DNA from: Aliivibrio fischeri ES114
GTDB taxonomy: Bacteria > Pseudomonadota > Gammaproteobacteria > Enterobacterales > Vibrionaceae
DNA length: 32,000 nt
NCBI RefSeq assembly: GCF_000011805.1
Contig: NC_006841.2
Direction: 5' to 3' (one strand)
How positions within the stretch are numbered: position 1 is the first letter of the stretch; every line of letters begins with the position of its first letter. Both the position numbers and the translations under genes were made by a program. Positions 11,630 to 30,251 of the stretch are shown here, one piece after another. The notes under the pieces were generated by a model. That model was not told where the DNA came from and made no database searches. It saw only the letters and a list, made by a program, of their open reading frames with translations.

Positions 11630-12205
11630 TTAAATTGGTCTTGTCATAATTAATGGGTTTGGATTTAGTGTTTCGCAGTCTTTGTATAAATCAGCAGATA
11701 ATTGGCGAAAAGCGGCTTGTTTAATATATGAGGTTTTAAAGGCAATCATTGCTTCTTCTATTTTGTTAGAATATATAGGGGTAATAGACACATTATTCCA
11801 CTGATAATTAACATCGGTAACGTACACATTTAACGCGTCATAAGGTAATTGAAATACTAATGTTTGATTGCAAGGAGTAAAGGTTCCCAAAGGCGTCCCA
11901 CTTGCATCTTGTGCTTTAGTGGACGTAATAGCGATAAAACTCCCCGCTTTAGCTGACCCTACAATATACCGTCTATCTTTTGTATATTGATAAGACAAAG
12001 AAGAAAACCAATCTTCTTTAAAAACCGCATTTTCAAAGTCAATTTTACCTAATGACAATTTAATATCATAAATACTCGTAATGTTACCTATAACAAAGTT
12101 CACATTATGTAATTCTGTTTCTTTTTCAGTTACCACTTCGGTTTTCGTCGTTGAACATCCACTTAGGGCCAAGATCAGGGCTAAATTAAACATCCTTGCT
12201 AACAT
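11630..12205 (-). CDS. lipoprotein, unknown function
   Basis: Lipobox 'LALSGC'. The ATG at 12205 sits 6 nt after aaggtgg (the track start at 12214 is a GTG inside that SD). Confidence 0.65.
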   Translation of the reverse strand: MLARMFNLALILALSGCSTTKTEVVTEKETELHNVNFVIGNITSIYDIKLSLGKIDFENAVFKEDWFSSLSYQYTKDRRYIVGSAKAGSFIAITSTKAQDASGTPLGTFTPCNQTLVFQLPYDALNVYVTDVNYQWNNVSITPIYSNKIEEAMIAFKTSYIKQAAFRQLSADLYKDCETLNPNPLIMTRPI

Positions 12206-12349: not shown

Positions 12350-12480
12350 AAAAAAAGGGACTCAATGACTCGAATGAGTCCCAAATCTGTAATATCCATT
12401 TACAGTAATACTTATAAATAAGGAGTAAATACACCTTATCACTATGTCATTTATTAACCAACTGTTAAATAAAACAGGTT
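12350..12480 (-). ncRNA. sRNA-like element, copy U0 (homologous to the two units in cassette 29262-29705)
   Basis: Minus-strand 5' block aacctgttttatttaacagttggtt, a central hairpin carrying ACUCCUUAU, and the terminator gggactca / tgagtccc + U7. Confidence 0.45.
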
Positions 12481-12518
12481 TTCCTCCTTAATTTACTTAT
12501 TTCAGGTTGTTTAGGGAA

Positions 12519-12620
12519 TTATGAAATTTGTTCTGAAATAACAAATAGTATTTCAAGCAAGCTAGATACAATCAAATCAAAAAATACATAGAAAAGTTCA
12601 TCATTGATATAAGTAGTCAT
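12519..12620 (-). CDS. possible 33-aa hydrophobic peptide
   Basis: MTTYINDELFYVFFDLIVSSLLEILFVISEQIS. SD gaggt 6 nt upstream of the ATG. It ends 38 nt upstream of U0. Confidence 0.25.
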   Translation of the reverse strand: MTTYINDELFYVFFDLIVSSLLEILFVISEQIS

Positions 12621-12948
12621 TTAATTACCTCGCCTTTAGTTATCATGTTGGAGATTATTAGAAAATCACGGAAATACAACTTCAGTAACTGTAAAATATT
12701 ACAGTTTTAATATTTGTATTAGCACCTAATTTCAGGGAGTAACATACTGATATTAAAGATTATTATAACTCATACTTGATGCTTTTATACTGTTATTATT
12801 TAATAAGTTTCTTGTTACTTATTTGCATTTAAAGAAAGGAGTAAATCTATTATTGGAAACTATAAATATTTGCATTAATCATTGACATTACACTAAGGGG
12901 AGAGTTTAAAGTTAACTCAAATGTACAAATTGATTAATGAGGTAACTT

Positions 12949-13056
12949 ATGGGATGTTGTAATAAAACACCAAATGGAGGAGCCCCTCTAGGGTTATTAT
13001 TAAAAGTAATTTTTTGGATTGGACTTTTTATATTTTTGATCGCTTTATGGCAGTAA
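12949..13056 (+). CDS. possible 35-aa membrane peptide
   Basis: MGCCNKTPNGGAPLGLLLKVIFWIGLFIFLIALWQ. SD tgaggt. Upstream TTGACA (12882-12887), 17 nt, TTTAAA (12905-12910). Confidence 0.3.
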   Translation: MGCCNKTPNGGAPLGLLLKVIFWIGLFIFLIALWQ

Positions 13057-28202: not shown

Positions 28203-28323
28203 TAACGCCTGCATAACACGTTTACTACCAAGCAATTATACTTAAAAGTAATGCCTTAAAACGAGAAACATCTGGCAACCTGAGGATGCCGAGTGTAGTA
28301 AATCGTGTTGATGCATTTGTTAT
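28203..28323 (-). repeat. attC subtype A (121 bp)
   Basis: Both arms intact. Confidence 0.92.
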
Positions 28324-29111
28324 AAGCACCTTTCACCAAATAGACTATTTGTAATGGGTTGGTGATTTAGCTTCAGATACTCGATGTCAGCTAAATAAGC
28401 AAGATGATGTCCATTACTGATGTTTTCAATAAATGCCTCATTACCGTTGTCAGCTTCACTTTGCATGAAATCGACTAAGGTTTTAACCCTAGCAATCATA
28501 GTTTCAACTAACTTCTCACGTTCAGCATTTGATAAACCATAAGAATCACAAAACAACTTAGCCCTAGCCGATTGAGAGTTTAAATCACCTAATGCATCAT
28601 ACTCATTGGTCTTAAACGGTGCCCAACAATAAACAGCATACGCAATATCCCAAAGTCTTGGTGCAGGATGAGCCGTATCAAAGTCAAAAATACCGACAGT
28701 TTGATTTCCATTTAAAGCTACATTGTAAGGAGCGAAATCTCCATGACAAATAACTTCATACGGTTTTCTGCTTGGTAGCATCCATTCAGTTTTTTGAAAT
28801 GACGGACTAGAAATAAATGAAACCGTTGAATCATGATATTGACGCAAAAGCTTGCCAGCAGAAATTAATGCTTCATCCGTGGCTATATTTCCAGACAATG
28901 GATAATTGTAAACTTCACCCGAGACATAAGACAAAATCTCATTTCCATTATCGTCAAAACCAAAGGATTTTGGAGCGCCACTAAAGCCATCACTTTCGAG
29001 GTGAGACAGCAACTTATGAATTGAAACAGACCAAAAACCACTTGGTCGATATACTTTATCTTCAGAGCGAAAAACTAACCCTTCGCGCCCGCCTTGAAGT
29101 TCTTCCATCAT
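28320..29111 (-). CDS. aminoglycoside-phosphotransferase-like (APH/ChoK family) kinase
   Basis: Catalytic 'CHGDFAPYNV' and 'GIFDFDTAHP' (Brenner and DFD motifs). The stop codon lies inside the attC. Confidence 0.8.
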   Translation of the reverse strand: MMEELQGGREGLVFRSEDKVYRPSGFWSVSIHKLLSHLESDGFSGAPKSFGFDDNGNEILSYVSGEVYNYPLSGNIATDEALISAGKLLRQYHDSTVSFISSPSFQKTEWMLPSRKPYEVICHGDFAPYNVALNGNQTVGIFDFDTAHPAPRLWDIAYAVYCWAPFKTNEYDALGDLNSQSARAKLFCDSYGLSNAEREKLVETMIARVKTLVDFMQSEADNGNEAFIENISNGHHLAYLADIEYLKLNHQPITNSLFGERCL

Positions 29112-29140
29112 AATTCCTTTTCATGAAAAACCAGTGCTTA

Positions 29141-29261
29141 TAACGCCTGCATAACACGTTTGCTACTATGCAATTATACTTAATATTGACGCCTTAAAAC
29201 GAGAAACACCCGGCAAACTGAGGTTGCCGAGTGTAGTAAATCGTGTTGATGCATTTGTTAT
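29141..29261 (-). repeat. attC subtype A (121 bp)
   Basis: Both arms intact. Confidence 0.92.
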
Positions 29262-29351
29262 ACGTGTCTACTTTAGTTTGAATAAGTACATATACAAAAC
29301 TTAATATAACTTACAGTTCATCACAGCTAAAACAGCACAAGAGGTATGAAT

Positions 29352-29480
29352 AAAAAAAGGGCTCGATGACTGGAATCGAGCCCTGAACGTGAAATGCCTG
29401 TCTACAGCAACACAAAATTAGTGAGGAGTTCCAGTTTATTACTGGAGTCACTCCCAACCAACTGTAAAATAAGACAGGTT
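29352..29480 (-). ncRNA. sRNA-like unit U1
   Basis: Minus strand: aacctgtcttattttacagttggtt, a hairpin containing ACUCCUCAC, gttgctgtagacaggcatttca, then the terminator gggctcga / tcgagccc + U7. Confidence 0.5.
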
Positions 29481-29533
29481 TGTTTTTAACGCTACATCCT
29501 TTGAAATCAAGTGAAACCCTTGATATTTCACAC

Positions 29534-29665
29534 AAAAAAAAGGGACTCATTGGCTAAAATTGAGTCCCAGACATGAAATGCTTGTCTACAGCAACACATA
29601 AGTAAGGAGTGACTACAATTTTATTACATTGACACTACCTTACTAACTGTAAAATCAGGTAGGTT
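29534..29665 (-). ncRNA. sRNA-like unit U2
   Basis: Minus strand: aacctacctgattttacagttagt, a hairpin containing ACUCCUUAC, gttgctgtagacaagcatttca, then the terminator gggactca / tgagtccc + U8. Confidence 0.5.
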
Positions 29666-29705
29666 ACTATTAAATATTTATAATTTGAACGTCATTGATT
29701 TCGTA

Positions 29706-29825
29706 TAACGCCTGCATAACACGTTTGCTACCAAGCAGATTAAGCTCAAATTTACCACTTAACTCGGTAAACCAAAAGAAATCTAGAATGCCGAATGTAG
29801 CAAATCGTGTTGATGCATTTGTTAG
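29706..29825 (-). repeat. attC subtype C (120 bp)
   Basis: Both arms intact. Confidence 0.92.
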
Positions 29826-29873
29826 CCTTATTAACTTAATTAGTATACTATACCTTAAATTTAAATATTAAGG

Positions 29874-30251
29874 ATGGCAATTATGCTAATGGCTCTTAAC
29901 ACTCATAATTTTGACCACAAAAAAGCTTACGGTTACGACAACATTGTTATGGATGCAGACTATTCACAAGTTGACCGTGCAAATATCGAAAATCTAAATA
30001 ACATAACAGCAATGGTACGCTTTAGTTATACCGAAAATAGACAAATTACTATCGAAAAATTCGAAAATATAACTGTAATAGAGTCGATAACGACAAAAGA
30101 TTTCGACTTCAAAGATGCTGCCAAAGGAGTTTTATTCCTAGGAGAGCGTATTTCCATCGAAATCGTCAATAAAGACTCTGCTGCCATTTTATACCCAAAA
30201 GCTTTCAACAAGCTTGGGCACTTTAATCAATTTACACTTAAGTTAACTTAA
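29874..30251 (+). CDS. hypothetical protein, reverse-oriented in its cassette
   Basis: 125 aa. The aagga SD fits the ATG at 29883 better than the one at 29874. Confidence 0.5.
   Translation: MAIMLMALNTHNFDHKKAYGYDNIVMDADYSQVDRANIENLNNITAMVRFSYTENRQITIEKFENITVIESITTKDFDFKDAAKGVLFLGERISIEIVNKDSAAILYPKAFNKLGHFNQFTLKLT

What the first reader, a model, noticed from the sequence alone, without database searches (positions are those of the whole stretch)
29262..29705. Cassette containing only two tandem ~130-nt terminator-ended sRNA-like units
The cassette has no credible ORF; the listed 79-aa ORF runs straight through a terminator hairpin. On the minus strand (the cassette sense strand) it holds two tandem units, U2 at 29665-29534 and U1 at 29480-29352. 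Each unit has a conserved 5' block (aacct..attttacagtt(g/a)gt). Next comes a central hairpin whose sequence differs but whose 3' arm always exposes ACUCCU(C/U)A, complementary to a Shine-Dalgarno AGGAG. Then comes the conserved gttgctgtagaca(g/a)gcatttca, and a strong intrinsic terminator. The terminator stems differ by compensatory changes (gggctcga/tcgagccc vs gggactca/tgagtccc), which supports a conserved RNA hairpin. A third homologous unit lies outside the array at 12350-12480. A cassette dedicated to a duplicated anti-SD-bearing sRNA would be an unusual integron cargo; it could be a trans-acting translational repressor or an RNA antitoxin-like element.
Basis: seen in the sequence. Interest (0 to 1): 0.7.

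Follow-up and report, generated by a model that had tools for sequence, protein, structure and literature searches.

The report
Gene-less integron cassette, twin RNA modules
This protein-free integron cassette of the squid symbiont Aliivibrio fischeri holds two copies of a ~135-base module with a likely DNA-damage (LexA) switch site, a strong terminator and a backward-facing promoter; a near-identical cassette ('F1') was already shown experimentally to fire transcription in both directions, so it is best read as a regulatory cassette, not the proposed ribosome-site-blocking small RNA.

Summary
The cassette (29708-29144, minus sense) holds two tandem ~135-nt units (29668-29535 and 29483-29351). 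A third copy lies at 12483-12350. Each ends in a strong intrinsic terminator with compensatory stem changes. No credible ORF and no Rfam family were found.

The interpretation needs revision:
- The window is Aliivibrio fischeri. The cassette is 98%/88% identical to gene-less cassette 'F1' of strain ES114 (Blanco et al., NAR 2024). F1 has measured promoter activity on both strands and silences an upstream gene. Its mapped sense 5' ends lie just upstream of each unit. Its antisense 5' ends lie inside each unit's CTGTAGACA block.
- The 'conserved 5' block' is a CTGT-N8-ACAG LexA/SOS box. It is intact in U1, U3 and U4 and decayed in U2.
- The 'ACUCCU anti-SD' is base-paired, not exposed. It is deleted in U3's orthologue, and the central hairpin is significant only in U1 and U2.
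- The other conserved blocks coincide with my proposed antisense promoter (-35 in the terminator loop, -10 in CATTTCA).

Best reading: a compact, probably SOS-gated, convergent sense/antisense transcription module acting mainly in cis on neighbouring cassettes. The family is tiny: A. fischeri and one relative.

The parts
29144..29708 (-). Complete integron cassette. It runs from the TT of the upstream R' core GTTATAC (29709-29703) to the G of its own R' core GTTATAA (29144-29138). Its own attC lies at about 29262-29138.
   Evidence: Sequence read. attC R'' matches at 29239-29259 and 29803-29823. An 800-nt stretch spanning this cassette (window 29101-29900) is 100% identical in a second A. fischeri assembly, L028. 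It is 97.8% / 87.8% identical to published cassette F1.
29535..29668 (-). Unit U2, the promoter-proximal module of the cassette.
   Evidence: Covariance-model hit of 140 bits. Alignments A1-A3. MFE z-score -3.1. In F1 a sense 5'-RACE end maps 9 nt upstream of its AACCT, equivalent to window position ~29674.
29351..29483 (-). Unit U1, the distal module of the cassette.
   Evidence: Covariance-model hit of 146 bits. MFE z-score -6.0. In F1 a cluster of sense 5'-RACE ends (191/194/197) maps 7-13 nt upstream of its AACCT.
29462..29477 (.). LexA/SOS-box core of U1: CTGTCTTATTTTACAG (CTGT-N8-ACAG).
   Evidence: It is one of only 3 exact CTGT-N8-ACAG matches in the 32-kb window, against 0.3 expected. 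It scores 13.4 bits with a matrix built from 93 published LexA sites and ranks 3rd of about 32,000 window positions.
29647..29662 (.). Decayed box of U2: CTACCTGATTTTACAG. The first half-site is lost.
   Evidence: Sequence read. It scores only 4.2 bits, below all 93 published sites. The RNA helix P1a is also broken in this lineage.
29534..29568 (-). U2 intrinsic terminator: GGGACTCA, an 11-nt loop, TGAGTCCC, then T8.
   Evidence: Stem pairs covary with those of U1.
29351..29384 (-). U1 intrinsic terminator: AGGGCTCGAT, a 7-nt loop, ATCGAGCCCT, then T7.
   Evidence: Found by the terminator scan, with 10 pairs of which 6 are G-C. Fold. Covariation.
29574..29597 (-). U2 3' conserved block GTGTTGCTGTAGACAAGCATTTCA. 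The antisense start maps at about 29587. The proposed antisense -10 is TGAAAT on the + strand at 29574-29579. The proposed -35 is TTGGCT on the + strand at 29550-29555, inside the terminator loop, with an 18-nt spacer.
   Evidence: The F1 antisense 5'-RACE end 122 maps to the A after CTGT. The -35 and -10 assignments are my own reading of the sequence. The consensus promoter scan did not call them.
29390..29413 (-). U1 3' conserved block GTGTTGCTGTAGACAGGCATTTCA. The antisense start maps at about 29403. The proposed antisense -10 is TGAAAT on the + strand at 29390-29395. The proposed -35 is ATGACT on the + strand at 29366-29371, inside the terminator loop, with an 18-nt spacer. The block also forms the 3' strand of RNA helix P1 with the 5' block.
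   Evidence: The F1 antisense 5'-RACE end 283 maps within about 2 nt of the position homologous to end 122 in U2. P1 pairing is shown.
12350..12483 (-). Unit U3, the third copy, in the decayed distal fringe of the array. Its LexA-box core is at 12462-12477.
   Evidence: Covariance-model hit of 131 bits. The box scores 13.7 bits and ranks 2nd in the window. Orthologues at L019 9745-9865 and L020 3834-3954 keep the box, the 3' block and the terminator but lack the CUCCU segment.
12686..12707 (.). 'Box 4': the best LexA-like site in the window (core CTGTAATATTTTACAG at 12689-12704). It lies 64 nt upstream of the 33-aa ORF VF_A0623.
   Evidence: 16.0 bits, rank 1 in the window. It is an exact CTGT-N8-ACAG. 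It is conserved in L019 and L020. Its similarity to the units is limited to the 22-nt box.
12519..12620 (-). 33-aa ORF identical to VF_A0623 of ES114 (MTTYINDELFYVFFDLIVSSLLEILFVISEQIS). It lies directly upstream of U3.
   Evidence: ORF list. Exact match to the annotated ES114 protein, seen on 38 contigs. Called as a gene in L019 and L020.

Best explanation
The cassette is a non-coding regulatory cassette. It is built from two tandem copies of a compact bidirectional transcription module.

ANATOMY OF EACH MODULE
1. A promoter lies just upstream. It starts a sense RNA whose first ~30 nt contain a LexA-type operator. The operator is intact in U1, U3 and U4 and decayed in U2.
2. A structured body follows: helix P1 between the 5' and 3' conserved blocks, plus a variable central hairpin.
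3. A strong intrinsic terminator ends most transcripts at about 135-145 nt. A fraction reads through into the downstream cassette.
4. A second promoter sits on the other strand. Its -35 lies in the terminator loop and its -10 in the CATTTCA block. It starts inside CTGTAGACA and fires back through the module, the upstream attC and the neighbouring cassette.

PROPOSED MODE OF ACTION
The module acts mainly in cis. It stops incoming sense transcription and re-emits some sense transcription. It sends antisense transcription into the upstream cassette. The convergent sense and antisense promoters interfere with each other. LexA bound at +10 to +30 would keep the sense promoter down in unstressed cells, so the balance would flip during the SOS response. 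That is the same signal that switches on the integron integrase.

SHOWN (for the F1 copy, by Blanco et al.): promoter activity on both strands, the mapped 5' ends, and silencing of an upstream gene.

SHOWN HERE: the tandem modules, the terminators with covariation, the LexA-motif matches, the absence of coding potential, and the third and fourth copies.

INFERRED: LexA control, the exact promoter hexamers, sense/antisense interference, and discrete ~140-nt RNAs.
For: IDENTITY WITH A TESTED CASSETTE
- The F1 sequence comes from the paper's supplement. It aligns at 97.8% over the U2 half and 87.8% over the U1 half plus attC.
- All three ES114 gene-less cassettes (F1-F3) showed sense promoter activity, 27- to 101-fold.
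- F1 had the strongest antisense activity of the 29 cassettes tested (14-fold).
- F1 placed downstream of dfrB9 abolished trimethoprim resistance.

MAPPED 5' ENDS
- Table S3 gives sense ends at 35 and at 191/194/197. These lie 9 nt and 7-13 nt upstream of the AACCT of U2 and U1.
- Antisense ends 122 and 283 fall within about 2 nt of homologous positions in the CTGTAGACA block of the two units.

TERMINATORS
-. Across 7 copies, 97% of cells are paired and 3 of 10 pairs are compensatory.

LEXA BOX
- All 3 exact CTGT-N8-ACAG matches in the window (0.3 expected) fall on U1, U3 and box 4. In the fetched Aliivibrio loci, exact matches occur only at U4 and at the U3 and box-4 orthologues.
- With a matrix from 93 published LexA sites, these three are ranks 1-3 of about 32,000 positions, at 16.0, 13.7 and 13.4 bits. 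The published sites have a 10th percentile of 10.2 and a median of 17.1.
- CTGT-N8-ACAG is the validated Vibrionaceae LexA motif.
- In the U3 lineage the 3' partner strand of helix P1 changed while the CTGT core did not. G-C and U-A became G-U and U-G. This suggests an extra, DNA-level constraint on the box.

CONSERVATION PATTERN
- Among the cassette-borne units U1, U2 and U4, the 5' block is 83-92% identical and the 3' block 89-95%.
- The central region is only 47-63% identical across all four lineages.

NON-CODING
-. The 79-aa frame is broken in F1 (read by eye).
Against: - No transcript data exist for the native locus. The F1 data come from a multicopy plasmid in V. cholerae.
- Blanco et al. 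themselves raise spurious transcription in AT-rich cassettes.
- The RACE primers lay downstream of the terminators, so the mapped sense RNAs are read-through species. RACE does not separate primary from processed ends.
- My numbering of Table S3 carries an uncertainty of about 5 nt.
- The consensus promoter scan found no sigma-70 promoter inside the units on either strand. The -10 upstream of the 191-197 ends in F1 is unconvincing.
- The LexA scores are only 1.5-2 bits above the best chance hits in the window, which score 11.9 and 11.8.
- The three boxes in the units are homologous copies, not independent events. CTGT and ACAG also take part in RNA helix P1, so conservation alone cannot separate protein binding from RNA pairing.
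- U2 has lost the box.
- The family is tiny and young, so much of the 'conservation' may be recent common descent.
Confidence: 0.55

Rival explanations
1. Trans-acting small RNAs. Each unit would encode a ~130-nt sRNA whose ACUCCUYA motif pairs with Shine-Dalgarno sequences of target mRNAs, or acts as an RNA antitoxin, to repress translation.
For: - The units have the overall look of enterobacterial or vibrio sRNA genes. Each has its own 5' ends and a strong terminator with a 7-8 U tail.
- A CUCCU motif is present in U1, U2, U3 and U4.
- A copy exists outside a cassette context. That is easier to explain for a gene product than for an array-specific cis element.
Against: - CUCCU is paired, with an unpaired probability of about 0 in U1 and U2.
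- The motif is removed by a natural ~12-nt deletion in the otherwise intact U3 orthologue of two strains.
- The hairpin carrying it is not better than shuffles in U3 and U4.
- Conservation of CTCCT on the sense strand is equally conservation of AGGAG on the antisense transcript.
- No above-chance complementarity to the neighbouring small-ORF mRNAs was found.
- No genome-wide target search was possible with these tools.
Confidence: 0.12
2. Relic or orphan half of an SOS-controlled type I toxin-antitoxin-like locus. In this view the ancestral arrangement is the one seen at U3. A LexA-boxed small hydrophobic ORF (VF_A0623) has an mRNA that ends at the unit's terminator, and the unit's antisense promoter makes a convergent antisense (antitoxin-like) RNA. 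The cassette copies would have lost the ORF and survive as orphan antisense or 'anti-addiction' modules.
For: - At U3, the best LexA site in the window lies 64 nt upstream of a 33-aa hydrophobic ORF, which is followed immediately by a unit.
- The ORF is annotated in ES114 and intact in a diverged strain.
- By my reading, U3 has the best antisense promoter match: ATGACT, 19 nt, TAATAT (sequence).
- From general knowledge: SOS-induced type I toxins (tisB, dinQ, symE) are known. dinQ is opposed by the tandem, homologous sRNAs agrA and agrB. 3'-overlapping antisense antitoxins are known in Bacillus.
Against: - No remnant of the ORF is present in the cassette. Similarity between the region upstream of U3 and the units is limited to the 22-nt box.
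- Comparing the window with L019 by eye, VF_A0623 shows 3 synonymous against 6 non-synonymous codon changes. That gives no clear sign of purifying selection.
- The peptide is strongly acidic and has no basic residue. In my recollection this is atypical for known type I toxins.
- No toxicity data exist.
- Strain L021 lacks the whole module without an obvious replacement.
Confidence: 0.15
3. Functionless duplicated DNA. In this view the cassette is a decaying repeat whose AT-rich sequence gives fortuitous promoters. Only the terminators have any consequence.
For: - Distribution is very narrow. A pattern scan of one genome each from 185,579 species found one true hit. Metagenome and viral scans gave only chance hits.
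- There are signs of decay. The U2 box is lost, U3 carries a deletion in other strains, and the spacer between U2 and U1 differs by an indel between the window and F1.
- Blanco et al. could not exclude spurious transcription, and in-silico promoter prediction failed.
Against: - The terminator stems carry compensatory double changes.
- Both units are retained in two copies of the cassette that have diverged by up to 12%.
- Antisense starts fall at homologous positions in both units.
- lacZ control fragments of the same size gave no reporter signal.
- Exact CTGT and ACAG cores are kept in four of five lineages while the spacer varies.
Confidence: 0.15
4. Protein-coding cassette. The candidates are the 79-aa ORF, or small peptides on either strand, for example the 9-codon antisense frames that follow the AGGAG motif.
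For: - An ATG ORF of 79 aa exists at 29550-29311.
- The antisense strand carries a strong SD-like AAGGAG or GAGGAG in every cassette unit. It is followed by equal-length short frames beginning ATT ACN (my reading of the sequences).
Against: - The 79-aa ORF starts inside one terminator and runs through another. It is not on record among about 15 billion predicted proteins. It is interrupted in F1 (read by eye).
- The short antisense frames start with ATT or ATC, lie 9-13 nt from the SD-like motif, and differ in sequence between units.
- No ATG, GTG or TTG frame is shared by the units on either strand.
Confidence: 0.03

Closest known systems
Gene-less 'promoter' cassettes of Vibrionaceae sedentary chromosomal integrons, specifically cassette F1 of V. 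fischeri ES114 (Blanco et al., Nucleic Acids Res 2024, PMC11014356)
   Same: - It has the same architecture and nearly the same sequence: 97.8% over the U2 half and 87.8% over the U1 half plus attC.
- It contains no gene.
- Promoter activity was measured on both strands and 5' ends were mapped.
- It silences an upstream gene.
   Different: - The paper treats F1 as a black-box promoter cassette. In the passages I read or searched it does not describe the two tandem units, the intrinsic terminators, the LexA-like boxes or the third copy next to VF_A0623 (word counts for LexA and hairpin were 0). It states that small RNAs were not excluded.
- The window's copy carries a spurious 79-aa ORF. This exceeds the paper's 70-aa limit, so it would not have been picked up as 'gene-less'.
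- Whether F1 is an allele or a second paralogous cassette in the same array could not be settled.
LexA-controlled integron integrase promoters (Guerin 2009; Cambray et al. 2011, PMC3108266)
   Same: - Both carry a CTGT-N8-ACAG operator in an integron.
- The predicted input signal, SOS, is the same.
- The unit boxes score within the range of the 93 published intI LexA sites.
   Different: - The operator here lies inside a mobile cassette, and in the transcribed 5' part of a non-coding RNA. It is not at the platform's integrase promoter.
- Binding has not been tested.
SOS-induced type I toxin-antitoxin loci with small RNAs (tisB/istR, dinQ/agrAB, symE/symR). This comparison rests on general knowledge; none of these was tested here.
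   Same: - A LexA box controls a very short transcript.
- A constitutive opposing small RNA is present.
- The RNA genes occur as tandem homologous copies, as in agrA/agrB.
- At the U3 locus a LexA-boxed 33-aa hydrophobic ORF is adjacent.
   Different: - The cassette contains no toxin ORF.
- There is no sequence similarity to any of these loci, and Rfam gave no hit.
- No toxicity evidence exists.
- Complementarity tests were negative.
ORF-less promoter cassettes of Treponema / oral-metagenome integrons (Tansirichaiya et al. 2019, PMC6557892)
   Same: Both are cassettes without ORFs that supply promoter activity to the array. I saw only the title and abstract of this paper.
   Different: - The host lineage and the sequence are unrelated.
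- I did not read the paper's main text, so I do not know whether terminator-ended tandem modules or an SOS box are described there.

Membership tests
Integron gene cassette (Vibrionaceae chromosomal array) | The cassette is bounded by the R' core (GTTRRRY) of the upstream attC and carries its own attC, with R'' and R' cores, at its 3' end. It has the same orientation as its neighbours. | tested here: met
   GTTATAC lies at 29709-29703. The cassette's own attC lies at 29262-29138 and ends in GTTATAA. There are 21 co-oriented attC sites in the window.
Gene-less (ORF-less) regulatory cassette | The cassette contains no credible protein-coding gene. | tested here: met
   - The only long ORF (79 aa) runs through two terminators.
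- It is not on record as a called protein.
- It is disrupted in F1 (read by eye).
- Formally it exceeds the 70-aa limit used by Blanco et al..
Gene-less (ORF-less) regulatory cassette | The cassette has measurable promoter activity that affects neighbouring cassettes. | not testable with these tools
   This was shown experimentally only for the F1 copy, which is 88-98% identical. The data are sense and antisense reporters, RACE and dfrB9 silencing.
Independent small-RNA gene ending in an intrinsic terminator | A G+C-rich stem followed by a U-tract on the sense strand, with the stem kept by compensatory changes. | tested here: met
   Across 7 copies, 97% of cells are paired and 3 of 10 pairs changed on both sides.
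Independent small-RNA gene ending in an intrinsic terminator | A discrete transcript of the predicted size is made in the native host. | not testable with these tools
   Only plasmid-borne 5'-RACE ends of read-through RNAs exist for F1. No A. fischeri paper in the library mentions the loci.
LexA (SOS) regulon member | A CTGT-N8-ACAG operator lies at or just downstream of the promoter. | tested here: met
   - U1, U3, U4 and box 4 have exact cores.
- Their scores are 11.6-16.0 bits, within the range of 93 published sites.
- In U1 the box lies about +10 to +30 from the mapped F1 5' ends.
- U2 does not meet this feature (4.2 bits).
LexA (SOS) regulon member | LexA binds the site, and expression is induced by DNA damage. 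| not testable with these tools
   No EMSA or expression data exist. The margin over chance hits in the window is small: 13.4-16.0 bits against 11.9.
Trans-acting anti-Shine-Dalgarno sRNA | An accessible (single-stranded), conserved CU-rich seed. | tested here: not met
   - CUCCU has an unpaired probability of about 0 in U1 and U2.
- The motif is deleted in the U3 orthologues.
- The hairpin is not significant in U3 and U4.
Type I toxin-antitoxin locus | A small hydrophobic toxin ORF is overlapped by, or complementary to, the small RNA. | tested here: not met
   This holds for the cassette. No shared ATG, GTG or TTG frame exists on either strand. At the U3 locus the result is inconclusive: VF_A0623 is adjacent, but nothing shows toxicity or selection.
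Any curated RNA family (Rfam 15), tRNA or tmRNA | A match at the family's gathering score. | tested here: not met
   There were 0 gathering-score hits in the window. The best sub-threshold hits scored at most 23 bits against thresholds of at least 41. ARAGORN found 0 genes.
Riboswitch or cis-regulatory leader | A constant association with a particular downstream gene. | tested here: not met
   The downstream partners differ. U1 is followed by attC and an APH-like gene, U3 by a lipoprotein gene, and U4 by a 170-nt tail and attC. The lipoprotein gene exists without the unit in L021 and in other species.

The most novel reading that the evidence does not exclude
The module is an SOS-gated convergent sense/antisense RNA switch carried as mobile integron cargo.
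- In unstressed cells, LexA would hold the sense promoter off. The antisense promoter would silence the cassette upstream.
- DNA damage would remove LexA and fire the terminated sense RNA. That RNA would shut down the antisense transcript by collision and duplex formation.
- The expression of neighbouring cassettes would thus be re-wired at exactly the moment the integrase reshuffles the array.

This would make it a cassette whose 'function' is to make other cassettes damage-responsive.
Probability: 0.2. Interest if true: 0.75.

Novelty: new variant of a known kind. Interest (0 to 1): 0.45.

Why it matters
Large chromosomal integrons hold hundreds of cassettes, and how their expression is organised is an open question. 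Gene-less cassettes were recently shown to act as internal promoters and silencers, but how they work is unknown; the authors state that it 'remains uncertain'.

This analysis gives one of those tested cassettes a concrete anatomy:
- two tandem modules,
- real terminators,
- an antisense promoter built into the terminator,
- a LexA-type operator.

If LexA control is real, cassette expression, and not only cassette shuffling, would be wired to the SOS response by a mobile non-coding element. This is directly testable with EMSA, mitomycin-C RNA-seq and box mutations in the existing F1 reporter plasmids.

The analysis also corrects an attractive but unsupported idea, the anti-SD sRNA.

Tried and rejected
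1. RFAM AND tRNA. Rfam was run at gathering score on the whole window and at E<=10 on 29100-29900. Only sub-threshold noise came back. ARAGORN found nothing.

2. COLLECTION SCANS
- The 5'-block pattern on genome contigs gave 14 loci, of which 1 was real: Aliivibrio sp. EL58.
- The 3'-block pattern on metagenome contigs and viral contigs, and the 5'-block pattern on viral contigs, gave only chance matches in coding or GC-rich DNA.
- BLASTN against plasmids found no match.

3. EXACT-SEQUENCE LOOK-UPS
- Three window ORFs were looked up and none was on record.
- For the real genes this is probably a matter of start-codon choice. That cost two look-ups.

4. MORE ARRAYS. I fetched ten loci (L019-L028) from A. 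fischeri, A. salmonicida and two unnamed Aliivibrio species, anchored on the neighbouring genes. I scanned them with a covariance model with filters off. Apart from the U3 orthologues and the identical cassette in L028, no new unit was found.

5. TRANS-TARGET TEST. RNAduplex of sense and antisense unit RNAs against the VF_A0623 and 35-aa-ORF mRNAs, with shuffled controls, was not significant. The first attempt timed out.

6. IS THE REGION UPSTREAM OF U3 A DIVERGED UNIT? It is not. Similarity is limited to the 22-nt box.

7. HOMOLOGY SEARCH FOR THE 33-aa ORF.

8. IDEAS CONSIDERED AND DROPPED
- Riboswitch or leader: the downstream genes are not constant.
- Type III ToxI-like repeats: no toxin gene is present and the repeat size is wrong.
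- MITE or IS ends: there are no terminal inverted repeats.
- attC-like recombination hairpin: there are no R or L cores.
- IS110/IS1111 bridge or seek RNA: no transposase is nearby.
- Pairing of the 3' block with attC RNA: only 6+6 nt, which is at chance level.

9. LITERATURE. Searches for the locus tags and for A. fischeri sRNA or TSS maps found nothing that covers these loci.
Full report
SETTING

The window is Aliivibrio fischeri.
- The lipoprotein gene at 11630-12205 is 99% identical to an A. fischeri protein.
- The 33-aa ORF at 12620-12519 is identical to VF_A0623 of ES114.
- The 125-aa ORF at 29874-30251 is 100% identical to VF_A0644.

A chromosomal integron array runs on the minus strand, with 21 co-oriented attC R'' matches from 31558 down to 13259 against 0 expected. 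The finding's region is one cassette. It runs from the TT of the GTTATAC core at 29709-29703 to its own attC at about 29262-29138.

CHECKING THE OBSERVATION

The tandem units are real.
- The direct repeats have a period of 184-185 nt.
- The three copies align with 79% mean column identity.
- A covariance model built from four copies scores U1 at 146 bits, U2 at 140 and U3 at 131.

Each unit ends in a strong intrinsic terminator. Across seven copies the terminator stem is 97% paired, and 3 of 10 pairs changed on both sides.

There is no sign of a protein or a known RNA.
- No Rfam family, tRNA or tmRNA matches.
- The 79-aa ORF starts in one terminator and crosses the other.
- That ORF is not on record as a protein.

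What does not hold is the 'exposed ACUCCUYA' motif.
- In U1 and U2 the CUCCU bases are almost always paired with a GGAG-like 5' arm.
- The central hairpin beats shuffles only in U2, U1 and U1 of F1, with z from -4.2 to -3.2. It does not in U4 (0.0) or U3 (-0.85 and -0.5).
- In the U3 orthologue of two other strains a deletion of about 12 nt removes the motif. The box, the 3' block and the terminator stay intact.

RELATIVES ELSEWHERE

The family is very small.
- A pattern scan of one genome from each of 185,579 species found one true hit. It is a single-unit cassette (U4) in Aliivibrio sp. EL58.
- Metagenome and viral scans returned only chance matches.
- Ten loci (L019-L028) from A. fischeri, A. 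salmonicida and two unnamed Aliivibrio species, scanned with filters off, added only the U3 orthologues and an identical copy of the cassette.
- One A. fischeri strain (L021) lacks the U3 module altogether.

THE DECISIVE LITERATURE LINK

Blanco et al. (NAR 2024, PMC11014356) synthesised 29 gene-less cassettes from four Vibrionaceae. Their cassette F1 from V. fischeri ES114, given in full in the supplement, is this two-unit cassette. It is 97.8% identical over the U2 half and 87.8% over the U1 half plus attC. Whether F1 is an allele or a second paralogous cassette in the same array could not be settled. The window's copy carries an ORF above their 70-aa cut-off and so would have escaped their screen.

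What they measured:
- All three ES114 gene-less cassettes (F1-F3) had sense promoter activity, 27- to 101-fold. F1 was PcW-like in strength.
- F1 had the strongest antisense activity of all 29 cassettes (14-fold).
- F1 abolished trimethoprim resistance when placed downstream of dfrB9.
- Their 5'-RACE table gives sense ends at 35 and at 191/194/197, and antisense ends at 122, 240 and 283.

I mapped these ends on the sequence.
- The sense ends lie 9 nt and 7-13 nt upstream of the AACCT that opens U2 and U1.
- Antisense ends 122 and 283 fall within about 2 nt of homologous positions in the CTGTAGACA block of the two units.
- My numbering carries an uncertainty of about 5 nt.

In the passages I read or searched, the paper does not describe the units, the terminators or any LexA site (word counts for LexA and hairpin were 0). 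It notes that small RNAs were not excluded.

RE-READING THE CONSERVED BLOCKS

1. The 5' block is a LexA box.
- U1 reads CTGTCTTATTTTACAG, U3 reads CTGTTTTATTTAACAG and U4 reads CTGTCTGATTTCACAG.
- CTGT-N8-ACAG is the validated LexA motif of Vibrionaceae.
- The window has only three exact matches, against 0.3 expected. They fall on U1, on U3 and on a further site ('box 4', 12689-12704) that lies 64 nt upstream of VF_A0623.
- In the fetched Aliivibrio loci, exact matches occur only at U4 and at the U3 and box-4 orthologues.
- With a log-odds matrix from 93 published LexA sites, box 4 scores 16.0 bits, U3 13.7 and U1 13.4. These are ranks 1-3 of about 32,000 positions and lie within the published range (10th percentile 10.2, median 17.1).
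- The next chance hits score 11.9 and 11.8, so the margin is modest.
- U2 (CTAC...) scores 4.2 and is presumably dead.

2. The 5' and 3' blocks can also pair as an RNA helix, P1.
- In the U3 lineage the 3' strand changed, giving one C-G to U-A double change.
- In the same lineage G-C and U-A became G-U and U-G, while the CTGT core stayed fixed.
- This hints at a DNA-level constraint on the box in addition to RNA pairing.

3. The 3' block, CATTTCA and the terminator loop fit an antisense promoter.
- Read on the + strand they give ATGACT or TTGGCT, then 18 nt, then TGAAAT, then 7 nt, then the mapped antisense start.
- This assignment is mine. The consensus scan did not call it.
- Among the cassette-borne units U1, U2 and U4, these blocks are the most conserved parts (83-95%). 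The central region is 47-63% identical across all four lineages.

MECHANISM I COMMIT TO (CONFIDENCE 0.55)

Each unit is a compact convergent transcription module.
- It makes a short, terminated sense RNA from a probably LexA-repressed promoter.
- It makes an overlapping antisense RNA from a promoter built into the terminator.
- It acts mainly in cis on array expression. It terminates incoming transcription, leaks some sense transcription downstream and sends antisense transcription upstream.

In the window the upstream cassette carries VF_A0644 in inverted orientation. The antisense promoter would therefore drive that gene rather than oppose it.

The status of each step is as follows.
- Shown for F1: promoter activity on both strands, the mapped ends and silencing.
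- Shown here: the module architecture, terminator covariation, the LexA-motif matches and the non-coding status.
- Inferred: LexA control, the promoter hexamers, interference between the promoters and discrete ~140-nt RNAs.

RIVALS

- Trans-acting anti-SD sRNA (0.12). The motif is paired, is dispensable and is not in a conserved hairpin. No complementarity above shuffles to the neighbouring small-ORF mRNAs was found. A genome-wide target search was not possible.
- Relic of an SOS-controlled type I TA-like locus (0.15). This is suggested by the U3 arrangement of LexA box, 33-aa hydrophobic ORF and unit. No ORF remnant is present in the cassette. There is no clear purifying selection on VF_A0623: 3 synonymous against 6 non-synonymous codon changes between the window and L019, counted by eye.
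- Functionless repeat with fortuitous promoters (0.15). The narrow distribution and the decay of U2 and U3 favour it. Terminator covariation, homologous antisense starts and the negative lacZ controls argue against it.
- Protein-coding (0.03).

NOVELTY AND SCORE

The cassette belongs to a described class, gene-less regulatory cassettes. It is essentially one of the published examples, so the bare existence of a non-coding, transcribed cassette is not new.

I found no description, in the papers read or in the literature searches run, of the following:
- the modular anatomy,
- the terminators,
- the terminator-embedded antisense promoter,
- the LexA-type operator,
- the extra copies next to a LexA-boxed small ORF and in a second Aliivibrio species.

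I rate it a new variant of a known kind, with interest 0.45. The most novel reading still open is an SOS-gated sense/antisense switch that makes neighbouring cassettes damage-responsive. It has a probability of about 0.2 and would deserve about 0.75.

Noticed in passing
window 12949-13056 (+): An unannotated 35-aa ORF, MGCCNKTPNGGAPLGLLLKVIFWIGLFIFLIALWQ, with a good SD (GAGG 7 nt upstream).
- It has one clear transmembrane helix.
- It lies between the last, decayed attC and box 4, and faces away from U3.
- The exact sequence is on 49 contigs without any name.
- It is conserved in L019 (5 substitutions) and has two distant relatives that share MGCCNK..GGA.LGLLLK...WQ.
- It is probably a real small membrane protein.
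   Followed up: partly
window 12519-12707 (-): VF_A0623 is a 33-aa ORF that is hydrophobic but strongly acidic.
- It is preceded by the best LexA-like site of the whole window (16.0 bits) and followed directly by unit U3.
- The layout resembles SOS-induced type I toxins.
- Codon changes against strain L019 (3 synonymous, 6 non-synonymous) give no sign of purifying selection.
   Followed up: partly
window ~24313-23853 (-) and ~18344 downward (-); also L006 1374-862 (-): There are at least two more gene-less cassettes of a different type.
- They are related to cassette F2 of Blanco et al.
- Each begins, right after the attC, with a terminator-like hairpin: GGCTCAGTTCAGCGATTGAGCC followed by a T-run.
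- In Aliivibrio sp. EL58 an F2-like cassette sits immediately upstream of the single-unit U4 cassette.
- They appeared as weak covariance-model hits of 17-20 bits.
   Followed up: partly
window 29874-30251 (+): VF_A0644 (122-125 aa, no Pfam domain) is oriented against the array.
- It cannot be read from the integron's Pc promoter.
- It lies directly in the path of the antisense promoter of U2.
- Homologues occur in Vibrio and Moritella species.
   Followed up: partly
window 13279 to ~13190 (-); L022 6782-10570: The last attC of the array is decayed: its 3' half has diverged and the R' core is lost. The lipoprotein gene downstream of U3 is a regular cassette in A. salmonicida. There it is the second cassette after the integrase, behind a Kiwa (KwaA/KwaB) anti-phage cassette.
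   Followed up: partly
window 29443-29454 and 29606-29617: There is a 12-nt inverted repeat, 92% complementary, between the 5' arm of U1's central hairpin (GGAGTGACTCCA) and the 3' arm of U2's (TGTAGTCACTCC). The two sense RNAs could therefore pair with each other over 9-12 nt. It may be chance, because both arms carry GGAG/CUCC.
   Followed up: no
window 29502-29529 (-): The spacer between U2 and U1 contains a hairpin, TGAAATATCAAG, then ggtttca, then CTTGATTTCA. It belongs to a ~35-nt segment that is replaced by CCGAGGGGG in published F1. This segment supplies the only good -35 (TTGATT) that I could find for U1.
   Followed up: no
window 28320-29111 (-): The cassette immediately downstream encodes an APH-family phosphotransferase-like protein (PF01636, E 4e-13). 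It would receive any sense read-through from the units.
   Followed up: no
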